A DNA stretch of 64,000 nt. Origin: Escherichia phage LPEK22. The translations under genes were made by a program, and so were the position numbers. Shown piece after piece: positions 1 through 39,740 of the stretch (within the stretch, counting starts at the first letter, position 1; each line of letters begins with the position of its first letter). The DNA lies in the sequence record OK283619.1, one strand, 5' to 3'. Under the pieces are notes generated by a model, which searched no databases, had not been told where the DNA came from, and worked only from the letters and a program-made list of their open reading frames with translations.

Positions 1-3000
1 CCTTCCCCTACGCGTATTGGGGATTCCGTTACTATTTGTGATGCTTATGGGAAATTTGCCACTTACCCATTGACCGTGTCTCCTTCTGGAAATAATTTGT
101 ATGGCTCCACTGAAGACATGGCTATAACAACTGATAACGTATCAGCAACGTTCACTTGGTCTGGACCTGAACAAGGTTGGGTTATCACATCCGGCGTCGG
201 TCTTGGCCAAGGCCGTGTCTACAGTCGTGAAATCTTTACACAAATTTTGGCGTCTGAAACAAGTGCTGTCACTCTCAATACTCCACCAACAATCGTGGAC
301 GTGTATGCTGACGGAAAACGTCTTGCGGAATCCAAATATTCACTAGATGGGAATGTAATCACTTTCAGTCCTTCTTTGCCAGCCAACACAGAACTTCAGG
401 TGATTGAATATACTCCGATTCAATTGGGTAATGGCGGTGGTTCTGGTTCTTCTACGATTACCTGGGTCTATAATGGGGGTTCAGCGATTGGCGGTGAAAC
501 CGAAATCACGTTAGACATCGTTGTTGATGATGTTCCGGCCATTGATATAAACGGAAGTCGCCAGTATAAAAATCTGGGGTTCACATTCGATCCATTAACC
601 AGTAAAATCACTCTTGCGCAAGAACTGGATGCAGAGGATGAAGTTGTTGTAATTATCAATGGAACGCCAAACATCTATAATCAAATTGATTATACTTTGC
701 GGGAAGTGGCTCGTGTAACCAATGTTAAAGATACAGAGGTCGTTTATTTTAGTGTTGGTGCTGTGTTAAGCGGGTATAAAGTTATCTACGATAAAATAAC
801 ACAGAGATCATATTTTATTCCAGAGTTACCGACTGGAACCACGGCAGTCAGCCTTAGTTCTTCGGCTGTGCTTGTACATTCTGCTGGTAGTGTTGATCTG
901 GGCGCATTAGCTGTATCTCGTGAAGAATATGTTACCTTGGCTGGGACATTTGATTCTGGTGCTGTCATCAATACTAAAAATGAATTACTCACCCATACTG
1001 ATGGAAAGTATCGTTGGGATGGTACACTTCCTAAAACTGTAGCTGCTGGCTCAACACCTGCAACAACTGGAGGCGTTGGTTCGGGAGCGTGGTTGAGTGT
1101 TGGTGATGCCACTGCCCGCCAGTGGGTAGCTAATAATTATATCAATAGTAAATTCGAGAAGTTTGGGTCTTTCTTGCAAGGTTCAGTTTTAACCACCAAC
1201 GAGCAAGCTCTTGTTGATTCAAGTGGTCTTTTCTGGGTTAAATATGGTGCTATACAAAGTGGTGGTTATACAGTAGCGCCGGGAACTGTTCCAGACTATC
1301 CCGATTTTTACTGTGTTGGATATTTAACAGATTATGATTGGCAGTCTGTTACAAACTGGGGTGCTGATAACAACTATTCTATCGCAGATAAGATCGGTGT
1401 AGACGCGGTCGATGCTATAAACCTCGCAGGTTATCATGCGGAGAAACGTGCGGAACTATTCGGATCCCAGCAAGTTGTCATGGTTCCTGCTGGCACTTAT
1501 CTGTTGGATAAAACGACTCTTGTGGAAGGCACGGCGCATGGTCTGACTATTTATCGTAATCAGGAAGTTATGATTTTTCTTCGCAACAACGTTACTTTCA
1601 TCGGCGATGGCGACGCAACGTTACTGTATGTTGCCGATGGTGTTGTTGAGCGCAATAAGGAAAACGGGGGCACTAAAGGCTTTGTAGTTTTCGGTGATGG
1701 TATTCGTGAAATTCAGAACGCATATGTCCACGATATGCTAATTGATGAAAATGGTGACAATAACCTTGTCCCGCCATTGAACTGGTCTGGAGCACAAGCT
1801 CATTGTCCAGCAGTAGCTTGTTACGAAGGTAGTAATGGTGTGACTGTTTCTGGAGTTAACGTCAAGAATGCTCCTGGTGCAAACGTAATGGTATTCCAGG
1901 AAGCTCAGGCAGCGTTCAACAGCTACAATACGCGTGTAGAGAATTGCAACTTCTATCGCGTTGCTGACGCTGTGACTGGAAACAGTAACCTAATAGACCA
2001 CTCATCAATAAGAATTCATTCCGATGGCTACGTTATAAATAACGTTAAATGTATCCAGCCAACCATGTCAGACATGTGTACGGTATTTGAGTGTCATGGT
2101 AATGGGATCGTTGATGGATGCATCACCAAAAAAGCTCGCTACCCATTCCTGAAGGCTAACGACGGTGCTACATCGACATCTATAGTCACCTTCACAAATA
2201 ACGTCTGTGAGGACGCAGGTAGTGCTTTGGTTCTGGATACCGTACCTAACGTTACAACTGTTGCCAGATTTATTGGTAATACTGTAACGCTACGATCAGA
2301 AAAGCAAGTTATCGGGTATCCTAATACTGCGGCATTCACAACACAGCAGCCGTCTGTTTTGTCATCTGACCCAACCACTATTAATGCAATTATTTACTCT
2401 GCAAATAATAACATATTGCAAAAAAACAGAGCCGCAGATTGGACAACTGAACAAAAAGCTGCAAACGTTGCTTATGACCTGGACTATTTCAAAGAAGTTG
2501 TTAGTGAAAATAACACTTTCTCAGGTTTTTGGGGGTGTGTTCGCTTGGGTAAACAAAAAACAGGTGCTACTTTCAACAGCAATGACTCTTTTGTCTCTTG
2601 CGGGACCAACGGTTCACCTCAATTATCAGACAACACAGCCATAAGGTTTACCAATAAATTTGCCAACGATTATCTTGTTCACCTTGATGAAATGCATATT
2701 AAATGGAATATGACAAAATGTCAGTTTGGTGGTGTCCTGGGTTTATTGCAACAAGCAGCAGGAGTGACTGTTGGTGTTGTGCAATTCACTGCTGATATTA
2801 AAACAGATAGATGGATGCATCCAGCGCTTGGGATAGCTCCACTATCCGTACAGGATTACTACTTCAACATTGATGTATACAGTGATGTGAATACCAGTGA
2901 ACCTTTATACGGATACGCTGGTATTCATGGGCAAATTAATGTTGACTCGCCAACTCAACCATATGTTAAACAATTTTACAAATACAAACCAAACACCCAG

Positions 3001-3168
3001 AATGGATGGTGGTTTAAAGGCATTTTAGCAACTGACACAACTTCTGTTCCTGACAGGCCTTTTGGTAATGCGTCTGGTGACAGATATGATGTTATTGCTG
3101 GGGCATCAAATATTTTCGGGTATCGACATAATGGTACAACATGGGATGCAATGAAATTTACATCATAG
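1..3168 (+). CDS. Tailspike protein, 5'-partial (reading frame open to window start; track start at 70 is a TTG). Long N-terminal extension, then the shared anchor module, then a C-terminal domain.
   Basis: Frame has no stop from nt 1. Residues about 236-370 (VKDTEVVYFSVG...YRWDGTLPK...GAWLSVGDA) are about 70 percent identical to the N-termini of the ORFs at 3272 and 8300. Beta-helix or depolymerase fold of the C-terminal part is assumed, not shown. Confidence 0.75.
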   Translation, partial: PSPTRIGDSVTICDAYGKFATYPLTVSPSGNNLYGSTEDMAITTDNVSATFTWSGPEQGWVITSGVGLGQGRVYSREIFTQILASETSAVTLNTPPTIVDVYADGKRLAESKYSLDGNVITFSPSLPANTELQVIEYTPIQLGNGGGSGSSTITWVYNGGSAIGGETEITLDIVVDDVPAIDINGSRQYKNLGFTFDPLTSKITLAQELDAEDEVVVIINGTPNIYNQIDYTLREVARVTNVKDTEVVYFSVGAVLSGYKVIYDKITQRSYFIPELPTGTTAVSLSSSAVLVHSAGSVDLGALAVSREEYVTLAGTFDSGAVINTKNELLTHTDGKYRWDGTLPKTVAAGSTPATTGGVGSGAWLSVGDATARQWVANNYINSKFEKFGSFLQGSVLTTNEQALVDSSGLFWVKYGAIQSGGYTVAPGTVPDYPDFYCVGYLTDYDWQSVTNWGADNNYSIADKIGVDAVDAINLAGYHAEKRAELFGSQQVVMVPAGTYLLDKTTLVEGTAHGLTIYRNQEVMIFLRNNVTFIGDGDATLLYVADGVVERNKENGGTKGFVVFGDGIREIQNAYVHDMLIDENGDNNLVPPLNWSGAQAHCPAVACYEGSNGVTVSGVNVKNAPGANVMVFQEAQAAFNSYNTRVENCNFYRVADAVTGNSNLIDHSSIRIHSDGYVINNVKCIQPTMSDMCTVFECHGNGIVDGCITKKARYPFLKANDGATSTSIVTFTNNVCEDAGSALVLDTVPNVTTVARFIGNTVTLRSEKQVIGYPNTAAFTTQQPSVLSSDPTTINAIIYSANNNILQKNRAADWTTEQKAANVAYDLDYFKEVVSENNTFSGFWGCVRLGKQKTGATFNSNDSFVSCGTNGSPQLSDNTAIRFTNKFANDYLVHLDEMHIKWNMTKCQFGGVLGLLQQAAGVTVGVVQFTADIKTDRWMHPALGIAPLSVQDYYFNIDVYSDVNTSEPLYGYAGIHGQINVDSPTQPYVKQFYKYKPNTQNGWWFKGILATDTTSVPDRPFGNASGDRYDVIAGASNIFGYRHNGTTWDAMKFTS

Positions 3169-3170
3169 TA

Positions 3171-3198
3171 AAAACCCCGCTTCGGCGGGGTTCTTATT
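3171..3198 (+). terminator. Rho-independent terminator after the first tailspike gene
   Basis: ccccgcttcggcgggg hairpin plus ttcttatt. Confidence 0.75.
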
Positions 3199-3231
3199 AT
3201 ATCCATGTTTATAAAATTTTGTTAATTCAGA

Positions 3232-3238
3232 CTAAATA
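3232..3238 (+). promoter_or_regulatory. Late-promoter-like motif CTAAATA(cc) upstream of a tailspike gene
   Basis: T4 late promoters are TATAAATA. The variant [C/T]TAAATAcc recurs upstream of many late genes in this window. Confidence 0.45.
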
Positions 3239-3271
3239 CCCCATATTGGTCATCCTTTATGGGGTATTATC

Positions 3272-5368
3272 ATGATTTCTCAATTCAATCAACCACGCGG
3301 CTCCACTTCCATAGAAGTTAACAAACAATCTATCGCTCGAAATTTCGGTGTCAAAGAAGACGAAGTCATTTATTTCACTGTCGGTATTGATCTCAGCGGA
3401 TTTAAAGTAATTTATGATGAGTCTACCCAACGGGCTTATTCTCTTCCTTCAGGTATTGTTTCAGGAACGACTGCGATAAGTCTGAACGAACAAGCCATCC
3501 TTACTCATTCTTCTGGCTCTGTTGATCTCGGGGAATTAGCAGTAAGCCGCGAAGAATATGTGACTTTACCTGGTTCTTTTAATTTCGGCCATACTATTAA
3601 TGTGAAAAATGAACTTCTTGTTCACGATGATGAAAAATATCGATGGGATGGTGCATTACCTAAAGTTGTTCCTGCTGGTTCAACTCCAGCATCAACTGGT
3701 GGCGTTGGTTTAGGTGCTTGGGTTAGTGTTGGTGATGCTGCATTTAGGCAGGAAGCTAATAAGAAATTCAAATATTCAGTAAAGTTATCTGATTATTCTA
3801 CATTACAGGATGCAGCGACAGCAGCCGTAGATGGATTGCTTATTGATGTTGACTACACTTTTACTGCAGATGAGAATGTAGATTTTAGCGGTAAAGTTTT
3901 AATCATTGAATGCAAAGGAAAATTCATTGGCGATGGTATGTTGGTTTGGAATGGTTTGGGTGCGGGCTCAGTAATTAAGAAACCGCACATGCATACTAAA
4001 ACTACGCCGTATACTGTTTACCGATTCGATGCAAACGGTAATTGGGTTACAGACCCAACACAAGTTCTGGCATCTGTTCAGCAGCGTTTGGATGTTGGAT
4101 ATAAGCCAAATATTAACGATTTAGATATTTGGGACGACCTTCCTGATAATGTAAAAAATCAGGTTGCTGGTGCTACTTTGCGAATAATGAGCGGCGATAA
4201 TATCATCGTAGAGAACCCAGAAGCTACATTTGGTGGTTATCTATTTACTTTATGTAATAGGATTCTTGTTAAGAATCCACGCAATTTTATTGCTTTGGAA
4301 TCGGGCATTACATTTGAGAACCATCATACAACTGCATGGGGTACTGGCAACTGGGTTGTTGGGGGTGAGATAAAATATGGCTCTGGTTCCGCTGTACTGT
4401 TCATTCGCAATGATGGTGGTACAGACCATGATGGTGGAGTAAGGGATTTAATCTCATACCGTGTTGGAGAATCAGGTATTAAAACCTATCAGAACGAAAT
4501 TGGAGGTCGTTCAGCCAGGAACTACCGTTTAGTGTTCGACAATATAACTACAATCCAGTGTTACTATGATGGTATTGATGTTAATGCTGACACAGGGTCG
4601 CCAACTGAACGTGTGGATGACTACTCACTCGCAGAGTATCCATGGTTCCACCTACCTACTCAACATATCATCCGTAATATTATTACTCGTGATTGTATGG
4701 GGATTGGTGCTTGGTGGGATGGTCAGAAAAATATTATTGATAATGTTGTTACTTATGAGGCCCATAAGGAAGGCGTCTTCGATAGGGGTACTAACAATGA
4801 TATTACTAACATTACTGTAGTAGGTGCGAATAAGGATTTAACTAACCTAAATCAGCTTACCTGTGAGGGAGGTAGTAGACTTCGTGGTATTAACATCCAT
4901 GCATATACTACACAAGGTTACGCTATATACGCTCCGTCTTCAGAAGTAAGTAATGTTTCCTGTGCTGGTTCCGGTACTAAGAAATTACTATGTACCTATA
5001 TAAGCGATATTCAGGGAGGTAATATCAATGTTCAGCATAGTGCCAACCAAATGACACTTGCAATGCAACCTGCTATGGGTGGTACTACAAACCCATCTTT
5101 GCTTATGACGGCAGATTGCCAGGTTGCTACACCAGGGGGTGAGGCAAGTATTGTCAAGCTTTCGGCAATTCAGGAGGGTGTACGTGTAGGTGAGTTTCAG
5201 CTTAACCGCTTAGGCTTTAAGCATATGAGTATACCTGCTGCCCCTTTACAATTACCAGAGAGCGCTCTGGAACATAATTCATCTATAGGATTCTTCTTCG
5301 GAAGTGACGGAGCATTGAGGTTGCTTGCTAAAAAACCAGATGGAAGTTATGTAACATACACACTTTAA
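3272..5368 (+). CDS. Tailspike protein (698 aa) with N-terminal shared anchor module
   Basis: ATG start. N-terminal 150 aa (VKEDEVIYFTVG...YRWDGALPKVVPAGSTPASTGGVGLGAWVSVGDA) matches the module in the other tailspikes. Preceded by terminator and late-promoter-like motif. Confidence 0.8.
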   Translation: MISQFNQPRGSTSIEVNKQSIARNFGVKEDEVIYFTVGIDLSGFKVIYDESTQRAYSLPSGIVSGTTAISLNEQAILTHSSGSVDLGELAVSREEYVTLPGSFNFGHTINVKNELLVHDDEKYRWDGALPKVVPAGSTPASTGGVGLGAWVSVGDAAFRQEANKKFKYSVKLSDYSTLQDAATAAVDGLLIDVDYTFTADENVDFSGKVLIIECKGKFIGDGMLVWNGLGAGSVIKKPHMHTKTTPYTVYRFDANGNWVTDPTQVLASVQQRLDVGYKPNINDLDIWDDLPDNVKNQVAGATLRIMSGDNIIVENPEATFGGYLFTLCNRILVKNPRNFIALESGITFENHHTTAWGTGNWVVGGEIKYGSGSAVLFIRNDGGTDHDGGVRDLISYRVGESGIKTYQNEIGGRSARNYRLVFDNITTIQCYYDGIDVNADTGSPTERVDDYSLAEYPWFHLPTQHIIRNIITRDCMGIGAWWDGQKNIIDNVVTYEAHKEGVFDRGTNNDITNITVVGANKDLTNLNQLTCEGGSRLRGINIHAYTTQGYAIYAPSSEVSNVSCAGSGTKKLLCTYISDIQGGNINVQHSANQMTLAMQPAMGGTTNPSLLMTADCQVATPGGEASIVKLSAIQEGVRVGEFQLNRLGFKHMSIPAAPLQLPESALEHNSSIGFFFGSDGALRLLAKKPDGSYVTYTL

Positions 5369-38305: not shown

Positions 38306-38671
38306 TCAAAGATCTTGGTTCACATAGGCGGGGGTTGCCTCGCCTTCTTTGTTGGAACCAAATAAACAGTCGATCGTGCCAATACATTGTTGTAGCACTT
38401 TCGGCTCAAGAATCTGAGAAAACAATTCTTCATTAGATGCCAGCAGTGGAACAACTTTCACTTCCCGCGCCTGGCCTTGTTGAATAATGCCAACATACAG
38501 ACCTTTGTTATTTGGGAGTAATGGTATCACCAACATCGGTGACACAATAAACCCCGATGTACAGAAAAGACTTTGTAAATAAACGCCTTTTAATGACGGA
38601 CGTTGTTCTGCTATGGAAAGAATTACTTCTTGGTCTTCCCCTACTGCGTATAAACCAACAAATTGCTTCAT
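38306..38671 (-). CDS. Hypothetical protein (121 aa), minus strand, divergent from the clamp gene
   Basis: ATG on minus strand, convergent with uvsW. Function unknown. Confidence 0.45.
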   Translation of the reverse strand: MKQFVGLYAVGEDQEVILSIAEQRPSLKGVYLQSLFCTSGFIVSPMLVIPLLPNNKGLYVGIIQQGQAREVKVVPLLASNEELFSQILEPKVLQQCIGTIDCLFGSNKEGEATPAYVNQDL

Positions 38672-39010
38672 ATATTATTTCTCACGTGTTAGCAAACTTG
38701 ACTACATAATAATGTCATGTTCTGTTTAGACCAAATAAAATATTTTAATTGTTGAATAAAAATCGCTTTCTTGTTGAACAATCCGTGCGTAATATACGAG
38801 TTGTGAGCTTTGCGAGCAACGAGTATTATCACGAGCGAAGCGAGTAGACTGATAAAGAAAGGTTTTATTAAAACAGAATATTATAAATGCCGTCAGGCAT
38901 TTATTTATCGCGCGTAGGGCAATTTATCACTTGTTCTATAACTACAAACACGCGATACTAATTTGCGTCAAATATGACTTGAACCCCACTATATTTTGAG
39001 GATACAACTA
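38672..39010. promoter_or_regulatory. Long AT-rich divergent intergenic region (about 340 bp) with short direct repeats
   Basis: Largest non-coding gap in the window. Lies between the divergent minus ORF at 38306-38671 and the clamp gene. Contains TTGTTGAA twice and a cluster of ACGAG/GCGAG repeats at 38796-38844. Confidence 0.4.
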
Positions 39011-39708: not shown

Positions 39709-39740
39709 TGGCGGGGGTTTCCCCGCCCTTTGAAACGTTT
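39709..39740 (+). terminator. Hairpin, possible attenuator or terminator between clamp and clamp loader
   Basis: gcgggggtttccccgc hairpin followed by an interrupted T-run. Confidence 0.45.

What the first reader, a model, noticed from the sequence alone, without database searches (positions are those of the whole stretch)
38672..39010. Large divergent intergenic region with direct repeats: candidate regulatory hub or origin
This about 340-bp AT-rich gap is the only sizeable non-coding region in the window. It separates divergently oriented genes (the minus ORF at 38306-38671 and the clamp gene), so it must hold at least two promoters. It contains TTGTTGAA twice (38749-38756, 38771-38778) and a dense run of ACGAG/GCGAG pentamers (38796-38844). 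In T4 an origin lies near uvsY/uvsW, so a comparable element next to uvsW here is plausible, but this is speculation.
Basis: inference. Interest (0 to 1): 0.5.

Follow-up and report, generated by a model that had tools for sequence, protein, structure and literature searches.

The report
Conserved hairpin cassette upstream of clamp gene
The gap before the sliding-clamp gene of this Salmonella phage holds three host-type promoters and an undescribed pair of hairpins, more conserved than the neighbouring genes, that is probably a regulatory RNA and possibly part of a replication origin.

Summary
The window is a Kuttervirus (Ackermannviridae; 100% identical to Salmonella phage Se-E here). The gap, its AT-richness, the two TTGTTGAA copies and the ACGAG/GCGAG run are all real. 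Five RCGAG in 49 nt never arose in 300 simulations. The gap is not the only ORF-free gap. Comparison across six genera shows three sigma-70-type promoters with conserved hexamers and variable spacers: one leftward and two rightward. The pentamers are the two halves of tandem G·A mismatches (YGAR opposite YGAR) in two plus-strand hairpins, 38796-38824 and 38831-38845, capped by GNA or GNNA loops. This block is 88% identical across genera, against 57% for clamp-gene third codon positions and 47% for the neighbouring ORF. It shows compensatory changes and matched insertions on both arms. It occurs once per genome and matches no Rfam family. A TAnTAT -10 element sits one base upstream in every enteric genus. 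An AT-rich, sequence-variable spacer with a palindromic hairpin follows. My best reading (about 0.4) is a structured 5' domain of an early rightward transcript. The main rival (about 0.28) is a T4 oriF/oriG-like R-loop origin. The TTGTTGAA repeat is not conserved as an iteron. Origin function remains untested.

The parts
38706..38734 (-). Leftward sigma-70-type promoter for the minus ORF (CBA120 orf164 equivalent). On the minus strand the -35 TTGGTC is at 38734-38729, the spacer is 17 bp, and the -10 TATTAT is at 38711-38706. Predicted start is near 38699.
   Evidence: In alignment A1 (12 sequences, 4 genera), TGTTTAGACCAA and ATA-n-TA are invariant while the spacer varies. Coordinates were read.
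38749..38779 (+). Upstream region of the distal rightward promoter. It holds the two TTGTTGAA copies (38749-56 and 38771-78), an A-tract AATAAAAAT (38754-62, UP-element-like position) and the conserved block GCTTTCTTGTTGAAC (38765-79, about -37 to -23).
   Evidence: The A-tract ATTAAAAA/AATAAAAA is kept in all six enteric genera. The second TTGTTGAAC is kept only in Kutter-, Agtre-, Limestone- and Taipeivirus. Miltonvirus instead has TTGGAC-17-TAGTAT. The block has no other copy in the window.
38790..38795 (+). -10 element TAATAT of the distal rightward promoter. Predicted start is 38801-38803 (inferred).
   Evidence: The hexamer is TA-n-TAT, with only the third base varying: TAATAT, TATTAT, TACTAT, TAGTAT (TATATT in Bue1). 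It always lies 0-1 nt from the hairpin base. Agtrevirus has an extended TGn.
38796..38824 (+). Hairpin 1: A-CGAG-UUGU-GAGC-UUU-GCGAG-CAA-CGAG-U. It has nine Watson-Crick or G·U pairs and two tandem G·A internal loops (CGAG opposite CGAG, UGAG opposite CGAG).
   Evidence: It is the MFE or consensus fold. The loop-closing pair occurs as C-G, U-A and A-U. U·G alternates with U-A. Bue1 has one extra pair and Miltonvirus three extra pairs, inserted on both arms.
38831..38845 (+). Hairpin 2: A-CGAGC-GAA-GCGAG-U, with the same YGAGC-loop-GCGAR core as the top of hairpin 1. GCGAAGC matches the mini-hairpin consensus.
   Evidence: C-G changes to U-A compensatorily in Agtre- and Limestonevirus. The loop is GAA or GUA. 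A covariance model finds a single copy in the window (68 bits, E=1e-17).
38846..38882 (+). AT-rich spacer. Together with hairpin 3 it is 27% GC. Composition is conserved but sequence is not.
   Evidence: Identity to other genera is 0.535, about the neutral level. It has indels and a 19-nt duplication in some Agtrevirus.
38883..38904 (.). Hairpin 3: the perfect palindrome ATAAATGCC-GTCA-GGCATTTAT. It is a weak or bidirectional terminator-like element.
   Evidence: The scan flags it as terminator-like only on the minus strand. The plus-strand tail is UUAUCG. The GC core is present only in Kutter-, Agtre- and Limestonevirus; other genera have AT-only palindromes at the same place.
38909..38917 (+). 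Conserved CGCGCG-TAG block (CGCGCGAG in other genera). Its role is unknown.
38931..38959 (+). Proximal rightward promoter for gp45: -35 TTGTTC at 38931-36, 17-bp spacer, -10 GATACT at 38954-59. Predicted start is 38965-67.
   Evidence: The hexamers are invariant and the spacer varies in A1. The equivalents are TTGCAT-17-TATAAT in Serratia phage Kevin and TTGCTT-17-TAATAT in Erwinia phage Bue1.
38964..39010 (+). Conserved gp45 5' UTR, including GACTTGAACCCCACTATA (38976-93) and the Shine-Dalgarno GAGGA (38998-39002).
   Evidence: Identity to other genera is 0.836. The block is unique in the window.

Best explanation
The gap is a compact control region that is conserved across the family. It holds three host-type (sigma-70) promoters: one fires leftward into the small minus ORF and two fire rightward. 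Directly downstream of the distal rightward promoter lies a cassette of about 50 nt. It consists of two hairpins built from the same unit, YGAGC-loop-GCGAR: two G-C pairs, a tandem sheared G·A pair and a flanking Y-R pair. I think this cassette most likely acts as RNA. It would be the structured 5' domain of an early rightward transcript that either ends at the weak hairpin 3, giving an RNA of about 100 nt, or reads on into the gp45-gp44-gp62-regA replication operon. In that role the two identical hairpin units would be a recognition and stability platform for a protein or for RNA polymerase itself. That platform would set how much transcript survives or passes hairpin 3 and the later hairpins in the operon. 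Shown: the conservation, the hairpin architecture, the promoter footprints and the single copy per genome. Inferred: that the promoter fires, where it starts, that the hairpins form in RNA, and any effect on stability or read-through.
For: The region is conserved at 74-80% across four genera, and recognisably in two more. The hairpin block is 0.885 identical, against 0.566 at gp45 third codon positions and 0.471 for the adjacent ORF. Of the pair cells, 96.5% are standard pairs. Three pairs show compensatory double changes. No shuffle out of 500 reached the observed covariation score, and all slid controls were far lower. Stem insertions are matched on both arms in Miltonvirus and Bue1. G·U wobble is used freely (5 of 11 variants at one pair), and the complementary strand does not fold (-1.6 kcal/mol), so the element is strand-specific and RNA-like. 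The TA-n-TAT hexamer varies only at its least critical base and lies 0-1 nt from the hairpin in every genus; Miltonvirus has a near-consensus TTGGAC-17-TAGTAT. No reading frame is conserved across the cassette. The CBA120 genome paper found no MotA/AsiA and suggested antitermination may time delayed-early genes (PMC3184105). GC-rich hairpins with T-runs sit inside the downstream operon.
Against: With a normal start 6-8 nt after the -10, the lower stem of hairpin 1 (38796-38800) would not be transcribed. Yet it is invariant, and its outer pair switches from A-U to U-A. Folding energies are no better than those of shuffled sequence (z from about 0 to -2.8). Hairpin 3 fails the plus-strand terminator rule and has no GC core in three genera. 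GNA triloops and GNNA tetraloops closed by C-G are hallmarks of stable DNA hairpins rather than RNA hairpins (PMC13037366). I found no transcript data for any Ackermannviridae phage. No partner protein is identified; the neighbouring ORF has no recognisable fold.
Confidence: 0.4

Rival explanations
1. Replication origin of the T4 oriF/oriG kind. The distal rightward promoter makes a transcript that stays annealed as an R-loop in the A+T-rich segment (38846-38905) and primes leading-strand synthesis rightward. The displaced plus strand folds into the very stable tandem-G·A and GNA mini-hairpins. These hold the bubble open or mark the site for primosome loading.
For: [quoted passage not shown] Here the -10 is conserved, the -35 is poor, and a conserved block lies at about -31 to -23. 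A 27%-GC segment follows that keeps its composition but not its sequence. Hairpin loops fit GCGNAGC/GCGNNAGC, including GCGTTAGC (as in St-1/alpha3), GCGGAGC (as in the N4 promoter) and CCGAAGG (as in RSF1010 ssiA). That motif is reported at priming and initiation sites, and the one RNA counterpart cited, r(GCGAAAGC), is far less stable than its DNA form (Tm 39 C against 76.5 C). The lower stem of hairpin 1 overlaps bases that are probably not transcribed. The site lies next to uvsY/uvsW and the replisome genes.
Against: T4 origins have no such conserved hairpins and share little sequence even with each other. Here 50 nt are nearly invariant across genera. G·T wobble, frequent here, is poorly tolerated in DNA stems. 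Hairpin 1 in Kuttervirus and Taipeivirus has a TTT loop, not a mini-hairpin. There is no sustained GC-skew switch. DNA-parameter folding is weak. AT-rich non-coding DNA is the default. There are no replication data.
Confidence: 0.28
2. A stand-alone, trans-acting, base-pairing small RNA of about 100 nt (38801-38905) that regulates host or phage mRNAs through a seed sequence.
For: It has its own promoter, 5' hairpins, an AU-rich middle, and a hairpin with a U-rich tail in Kutter- and Agtrevirus. It is unannotated and absent from Rfam.
Against: The single-stranded parts (linker and AT-rich spacer) are the least conserved, about neutral at 0.535, so no seed is conserved. The conserved parts are the stems. 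The terminator is weak or absent in three genera.
Confidence: 0.1
3. Double-stranded DNA sites. The CGAG repeats and the TTGTTGAA pair are operators or iterons for a DNA-binding protein that controls the divergent promoters.
For: The motifs are clustered next to promoters. The gap is strongly conserved.
Against: Changes keep complementarity rather than spacing: matched insertions on both arms, and C-G replaced by U-A or A-U. The element is strand-asymmetric, with G·A on one strand only. The first TTGTTGAA is not conserved.
Confidence: 0.07
4. Small protein-coding genes, as annotated in some GenBank records (31- and 35-codon 'hypothetical proteins' at window 38689-38781 minus and 38810-38917 plus).
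For: Pharokka-style annotations of KE30, KE27 and SeKF phages call them.
Against: Indels shift the frame between genera, and no stop-free frame with a related peptide is shared. The plus-strand ORF would start at TTG inside hairpin 1, and I see no Shine-Dalgarno-like sequence in the bases upstream of it (sequence read; not formally scanned).
Confidence: 0.02

Closest known systems
Bacteriophage T4 oriF (ori(uvsY)) and oriG (ori(34)) R-loop origins
   Same: About 100-140 bp. The promoter has a sigma-70-type -10 and a non-canonical upstream box. It is followed by an A+T-rich segment whose composition, not sequence, is kept. The site lies near recombination and replication genes (PMC3016281).
   Different: No MotA/AsiA is reported in this family (PMC3184105). 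A nearly invariant 50-nt hairpin cassette sits between the promoter and the AT-rich segment. No R-loop or initiation data exist. T4 origins are not conserved in sequence.
Promoter-proximal antitermination RNAs (lambda nut: boxA plus boxB; HK022 put: two stem-loops)
   Same: Position: just after an early promoter and before the first terminator-like hairpin of a long operon. There are two stem-loops with purine-rich loops. (Features of nut and put are from my own knowledge.)
   Different: Kuttervirus has no boxA; a UGCUCUUGA is present only in Miltovirus-type Serratia phages (Miltonvirus). The loops are GNA triloops on stems carrying tandem G·A, not the 5-nt boxB loop. No N-like protein is identified. 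There is no sequence similarity and no functional test.
DNA mini-hairpins GCGNAGC/GCGNNAGC at initiation sites (G4, St-1 and alpha3 complementary-strand origins; RSF1010 ssiA; N4 virion-RNAP promoters)
   Same: Hairpin 2 in every genus, and hairpin 1 in four genera, carry exactly these heptamers or octamers. They include GCGTTAGC, GCGGAGC and GCGAAGC; CCGAAGG occurs in hairpin 3 of Agtrevirus (PMC13037366).
   Different: Those systems act on single-stranded DNA with dedicated primases or polymerases (DnaG on ssDNA phages, RepB', N4 vRNAP). None of these is shown or expected here. The present hairpins add tandem G·A internal loops and tolerate G·T(U) wobble.
RNA motifs built on tandem sheared G·A pairs (kink-turns and related protein-binding internal loops)
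   Same: The 5'-YGAR-3' opposite 5'-YGAR-3' context is the classic one for sheared tandem G·A (own knowledge). It is repeated three times and invariant.
   Different: There is no 3-nt bulge, so it is not a kink-turn. No L7Ae-type partner is known in enteric hosts.

Membership tests
T4 oriF/oriG-type R-loop origin | Promoter with a sigma-70-like -10 and an activator box near -30 instead of a -35 | tested here: inconclusive
   The -10 TA-n-TAT is conserved in all genera. The -35 is poor (TTTCTT), and the conserved TTGTTGAAC at about -31 to -23 occurs in four genera only. Miltonvirus has an ordinary TTGGAC -35. MotA is reported absent (PMC3184105).
T4 oriF/oriG-type R-loop origin | [quoted passage not shown] | tested here: met
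   38847-38905 is 27% GC against 44% for the window. Identity across genera is 0.535, about neutral, and the segment is length-variable. It starts about 45 nt after the predicted start, beyond the hairpin cassette.
T4 oriF/oriG-type R-loop origin | Persistent R-loop, and initiation of DNA synthesis or autonomous plasmid replication on infection | not testable with these tools
   I found no replication or R-loop data. There is no sustained GC-skew switch, though that is not a defining feature.
Iteron-type origin | Three or more conserved direct repeats bound by an initiator | tested here: not met
   There are only two TTGTTGAA copies, and the first is lost in Taipei-, Milton- and Nezavisimistyvirus. 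The CGAG units behave as paired halves of hairpins.
Terminator-bounded bacterial/phage sRNA gene | Own promoter | tested here: met
   Sequence footprint only. No transcript data.
Terminator-bounded bacterial/phage sRNA gene | Intrinsic terminator (GC-rich stem plus U-tract) at the 3' end | tested here: inconclusive
   Hairpin 3 has three G-C pairs and the tail UUAUCG. It fails the plus-strand rule of the scan and passes only on the minus strand. It is AT-only in three genera.
Any Rfam family | Score at or near a family's gathering threshold | tested here: not met
   No hit overlaps 38796-38905 at E<=10 in the window. There is no hit at E<=1 in loci from six genera.
Lambda-type nut site | boxA (CGCUCUUA-like) followed by a boxB hairpin with a 5-nt GNRA-like loop | tested here: not met
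   Kutter-, Agtre-, Taipei- and Nezavisimistyvirus have no boxA. UGCUCUUGA occurs in Miltonvirus only. The loops are 3-4 nt.
DNA mini-hairpin initiation signals | GCGNAGC or GCGNNAGC (or CCGNAGG) hairpin | tested here: met
   Hairpin 2 is GCGAAGC or GCGTAGC in all genera. Hairpin 1 is GCGTTAGC, GCGTCAGC, GCGAAGC or GCGGAGC in four genera, but GCTTTGC in Kutter- and Taipeivirus. The consensus is from PMC13037366.
DNA mini-hairpin initiation signals | Acts in single-stranded DNA with a cognate primase or polymerase | not testable with these tools
No N4-type vRNAP or RepB' was examined.
Kink-turn | Three-nucleotide bulge followed by tandem sheared G·A pairs | tested here: not met
   The G·A pairs lie in symmetric 2x2 internal loops with no bulge.

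The most novel reading that the evidence does not exclude
This is the first mapped origin of an Ackermannviridae phage, and it has a new architecture. A host-type early promoter makes a primer transcript. The displaced non-template strand locks the R-loop open by folding into extraordinarily stable DNA mini-hairpins (tandem sheared G·A plus GNA loops) next to an AT-rich unwinding element. This would join the T4 R-loop mechanism to the hairpin initiation signals of single-stranded-DNA replicons.
Probability: 0.22. Interest if true: 0.75.

Novelty: new variant of a known kind. Interest (0 to 1): 0.5.

Why it matters
Kuttervirus and its relatives (CBA120, ViI, Det7, LIMEstone, the Klebsiella Taipeiviruses) are widely used in biocontrol and as models. 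Yet their early and middle transcription signals and their origins are unknown; the CBA120 genome paper says so explicitly. This 340-bp gap gives three concrete promoter predictions. It also gives one unannotated element, conserved across the family and under stronger constraint than the genes around it, sitting at the entrance to the replisome operon. Whether it is a regulatory RNA or an origin, it is a defined target of about 50 nt. It makes the question 'how do these phages time replication-gene expression or start replication' directly testable with a handful of mutants. The repeated YGAGC-loop-GCGAR unit is also a clean natural example of tandem sheared G·A pairs under selection.

Tried and rejected
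- **Rfam.** Scans of the window region and of loci from six genera gave nothing relevant.
- **Coding potential.** No frame is conserved. The small CDSs in some records are probably over-calls.
- **Extra copies.** A covariance model built from 11 variants finds one copy in the 64-kb window. It finds no match (E<=10) in the two Vibrio-phage loci (L015, L017) or the Aeromonas-phage locus (L016). It does give sub-threshold hits of 10-23 bits in unrelated metagenome contigs (L038, L040, L041), which I regard as chance or unrelated repeats. BLAST gives 272 places in 272 records.
- **Pattern scans.** Viral contigs returned only known Ackermannviridae plus three environmental relatives. Metagenomes returned two real hits and three chance hits. 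Bacterial and archaeal genomes returned none. E. coli genomes had no similar DNA, so there is no host homologue or mimic.
- **More distant gp45 loci** (80 IMG/VR loci). The cassette is absent outside the enteric genera and the VP-1-like Vibrio phages.
- **The neighbouring ORF as a possible RNA-binding partner.** There is no Pfam hit, the PHROG has unknown function, and the AlphaFold model (pLDDT 81.5) has no PDB match at E<0.7.
- **Shared promoter motifs elsewhere in the window.** GCTTTCTTGTTGAAC, GACTTGAACCCCACTATA and the T4 late box TATAAATA were searched. None recurs or is enriched.
- **Tandem-G·A hairpins elsewhere in the window.** They occur at the chance level.
- **GC skew.** There is no sustained switch.
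- **Long-range consensus fold from the cassette to the gp45 start.** Only hairpin 1 and a weak helix were found.
- **Literature on transcription starts, RNA-seq or origins in this family.** I found none.

Full report
**Identity of the window.** The 801 bases around the finding are 100% identical to Salmonella phage Se-E and 98.8-99.6% identical to the other 39 records listed, nearly all Kuttervirus genomes (PhiSH19, CBA120, Det7 relatives; family Ackermannviridae). Upstream lie the structural genes, then uvsY, an exonuclease and the UvsW helicase. Downstream lie gp45, gp44, gp62, a RegA-type translation repressor and further genes, almost all on the plus strand. The 121-aa ORF at 38306-38671 is a lone minus-strand gene of unknown function (PHROG 4255, no Pfam hit).

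**Check of the observation.** The gap 38672-39010 is real and AT-rich: 33.6% GC against 44.0% for the window. TTGTTGAA is at 38749-56 and 38771-78. RCGAG pentamers start at 38796, 38812, 38819, 38831 and 38840. This is the only place in the window with three or more in 49 nt, and 300 Markov simulations never exceeded three. The claim that this is the only sizeable non-coding stretch does not hold. A crude ORF map and the PhiSH19 annotation both leave other gaps of 200 bp or more. TTGTTGAA is also three-fold over-represented throughout the window, mostly inside ORFs, so two copies are not remarkable in themselves.

**The gap is under selection.** The 340 bases align over their full length at 74-80% identity with Agtrevirus, Limestonevirus and Taipeivirus. 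I scored identity of those genera to the window sequence, region by region:
- 0.885 for 38796-38846
- 0.836 for 38931-39010
- about 0.72 for the promoter regions
- 0.535 for 38847-38905

For comparison, gp45 first and second codon positions score 0.87-0.93. gp45 third positions score 0.566. The whole neighbouring minus ORF scores 0.471, and its protein is only 38-40% identical between genera. So part of this non-coding DNA is held as tightly as the replacement sites of a core replication protein.

**Three promoter footprints.** Each shows the classic pattern of invariant hexamers and a variable 17-bp spacer (coordinates).
- *Minus strand:* TTGGTC (38734-38729), 17 bp, TATTAT (38711-38706). This would serve the small ORF.
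- *Plus strand, proximal:* TTGTTC (38931-36), 17 bp, GATACT (38954-59). It is followed by a conserved 45-nt leader and a GAGGA Shine-Dalgarno before the gp45 ATG. The equivalents are TTGCAT-17-TATAAT in Serratia phage Kevin and TTGCTT-17-TAATAT in Erwinia phage Bue1.
- *Plus strand, distal:* a hexamer TA-n-TAT (38790-95) in which only the third base varies between genera. The variants are TAATAT, TATTAT, TACTAT and TAGTAT, with TATATT in Bue1. It is preceded by a poor -35, a conserved GCTTTCTTGTTGAAC block and an A-tract at the UP-element position. In Miltonvirus the same promoter is a near-consensus TTGGAC-17-TAGTAT.

The two TTGTTGAA copies belong to this upstream region. The first is not conserved outside Kutter-, Agtre- and Limestonevirus. 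Neither is conserved in Milton- or Nezavisimistyvirus. They are therefore not iterons.

**What the pentamers are.** On the plus strand, 38796-38824 folds as A-CGAG-UUGU-GAGC-UUU-GCGAG-CAA-CGAG-U, and 38831-38845 folds as A-CGAGC-GAA-GCGAG-U. Every CGAG or UGAG on a 5' arm faces a CGAG on the 3' arm, giving C-G, G·A, A·G, G-C. This is a tandem G·A mismatch in the Y-GA-R context that favours sheared pairs (context rule from my own knowledge). The 'dense run of ACGAG/GCGAG' is thus three such motifs seen from one strand. Support for pairing comes from comparison:
- The loop-closing pair of hairpin 1 occurs as C-G, U-A and A-U.
- The pair flanking the G·A motif of hairpin 2 switches from C-G to U-A.
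- A U·G alternates with U-A.
- The outermost pair switches from A-U to U-A.
- Bue1 carries one extra base pair and the Miltonviruses three, inserted on both arms.

On an 11-variant alignment, 96.5% of cells are standard pairs. Three pairs have double changes. No shuffle out of 500 reached the observed covariation score, and registers slid by 1-3 columns pair only 14-50%. This is a modest number of independent events, but the pattern is coherent.

The complementary strand does not fold. No reading frame is conserved. The cassette occurs once per genome. It has no Rfam match in any of six genera. It has no counterpart in E. coli genomes or in 185,579 bacterial and archaeal species genomes.

Two Vibrio Ackermannviridae lineages (VP-1, D493) have a simpler version at the same place. 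It is a GAA-triloop hairpin followed by UGGUGAGC-GCA-GCGAACCA or UAGAGC-GGA-GCGUUA. More distant gp45 loci lack it.

**Downstream of the cassette.** About 60 nt at 27% GC follow, with near-neutral sequence divergence, indels and even a 19-nt duplication. Within it every genus has a palindromic hairpin. In Kutter-, Agtre- and Limestonevirus this hairpin has a three-pair GC core (ATAAATGCC-GTCA-GGCATTTAT, 38883-38904) and a U/A tail. The terminator scan accepts it only on the minus strand. In the other genera it is AT-only. A conserved CGCGCG(T)AG follows, and then the proximal promoter.

**How it most likely works.** The firm statement is this: a conserved host-type promoter is fused, at a fixed distance of 0-1 nt, to a conserved strand-specific hairpin cassette, which is followed by an AT-rich segment free of sequence constraint. 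I favour an RNA role at about 0.4. The cassette would be the structured 5' domain of an early rightward transcript. It would present two copies of one recognition unit (YGAGC-loop-GCGAR) to a protein or to RNA polymerase. That would affect transcript stability or read-through of hairpin 3 and of the GC-rich hairpins inside the gp45-gp44 operon. Four points favour this:
- G·U wobble is used freely.
- The element is strand-asymmetric.
- The promoter is coupled to the cassette.
- The family has no MotA/AsiA-type middle regulators, and antitermination was proposed for it (PMC3184105).

A seed-pairing sRNA is less likely, because the single-stranded parts are the least conserved.

**The main rival.** T4 oriF and oriG are minimal units of about 100 bp. 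Each is a promoter with a sigma-70-like -10 and a non-canonical upstream box, plus an A+T-rich unwinding element of arbitrary sequence. The transcript persists there as an R-loop and leaves the non-template strand unpaired (PMC3016281). The present layout fits those sequence-level features.

Two oddities also point to DNA rather than RNA. First, a normal start 6-8 nt after the -10 would leave the invariant lower stem of hairpin 1 untranscribed. Second, the loops (GAA, GTA, GGA, GCA, GTTA, GTCA, closed by C-G) are exactly the GCGNAGC/GCGNNAGC 'mini-hairpins'. These are extraordinarily stable as DNA, and the one RNA counterpart cited, r(GCGAAAGC), melts at 39 C against 76.5 C for the DNA. They occur at the G4, St-1 and alpha3 priming sites, at RSF1010 ssiA and at N4 promoters (PMC13037366).

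Several points count against the origin reading. T4 origins carry no conserved hairpins. G·T wobble is unfavourable in DNA. Hairpin 1 of Kuttervirus itself has a TTT loop. There is no sustained skew switch. There are no replication data. Neither reading can be settled from sequence.

**Comparison with known systems and novelty.** The element is not a member of any Rfam family. It is not a nut site: Kuttervirus has no boxA and the loops are of a different type. It is not a kink-turn, because there is no bulge. It is not an iteron origin. It shares layout with T4 R-loop origins and with promoter-proximal antitermination RNAs, and it shares loop chemistry with DNA mini-hairpins. In the 21 Ackermannviridae records whose annotation I inspected, none annotates it as an RNA or regulatory feature. 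At most, spurious 30-35-codon ORFs are called across it. I rate it a new variant of a known kind: a promoter-coupled hairpin control element. Interest is moderate, at 0.5. It is strongly conserved, unusual in structure, sits at the gate of the replisome operon, and can be tested directly. Its function is still inferred.

Noticed in passing
window 38306-38671 (minus strand): The small ORF next to the gap (PHROG 4255, unknown function) is confined to Ackermannviridae-like contigs. It diverges fast, at 38-40% amino-acid identity between Kuttervirus and Agtrevirus, although its N-terminus (MKQFVGLYAVG) and C-terminus (EATPAYVNQD) are nearly invariant. An AlphaFold model (pLDDT 81.5) has no PDB fold match.
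   Followed up: partly
window 38326-38345 (plus strand): A terminator-like hairpin AGGCGGGG-GTTG-CCTCGCCT followed by TCTTTG lies inside the 3' end of the minus ORF, 26 nt after the uvsW stop. It would end the uvsW transcript within the convergent gene.
   Followed up: no
window about 39710-39731: A GC-rich hairpin GGCGGGGG-TTT-CCCCGCC followed by CTTTG lies between gp45 and gp44. It could be an internal attenuator or an mRNA 3' stabiliser in the clamp / clamp-loader operon.
   Followed up: no
L039 (CYGL01000298.1) 1380-1700: This metagenome contig is Agtrevirus-like up to a few bases after hairpin 2. It then continues into a gp5-like baseplate-hub ORF (1669-3279) instead of the AT-rich spacer and gp45. 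This is either a natural rearrangement with its breakpoint at the cassette edge or an assembly chimera.
   Followed up: partly
L008 (Salmonella phage vB_CECAV_050), L021, L042: AT-rich spacer: A 19-nt tandem duplication (TTATTATCTTTAATAAAGG) lies in the AT-rich spacer of some Agtrevirus genomes. It shows that length there is not constrained.
   Followed up: no
L043 690-705 and L044 (Serratia phages Kevin and 3M): The longer linker between the two hairpins in Miltonvirus contains UGCUCUUGA. This resembles the boxA of lambda nut sites and rrn leaders, and it lies 8 nt upstream of hairpin 2. It is absent from the other genera.
   Followed up: no
L040 (Ga0302114_10001894), many positions: This unrelated, GC-rich metagenome contig is peppered with GCGAGCGAAGCGAGC-type hairpin repeats. 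It matched the search pattern and the covariance model only weakly (up to 23 bits).
   Followed up: no
GenBank OR844942.1 and MN871475.1 (hits H21, H63): The records named 'Enterococcus phage Efm 3-10' and 'Pseudomonas phage Pa-sanjiao' are 98.5-99% identical to Kuttervirus across this region. The host labels are probably wrong, or the samples were contaminated.
   Followed up: no
window-wide: TTGTTGAA occurs 17 times against 5.5 expected (0 of 100 shuffles reached 17). Fourteen copies are on the plus strand and nearly all are inside ORFs. This is unexplained and may reflect codon-pair usage.
   Followed up: partly
window-wide: The T4 late-promoter box TATAAATA is not enriched (3 found, 2.5 expected), although the window carries many structural genes. 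The late promoter of this family must differ from that of T4.
   Followed up: no
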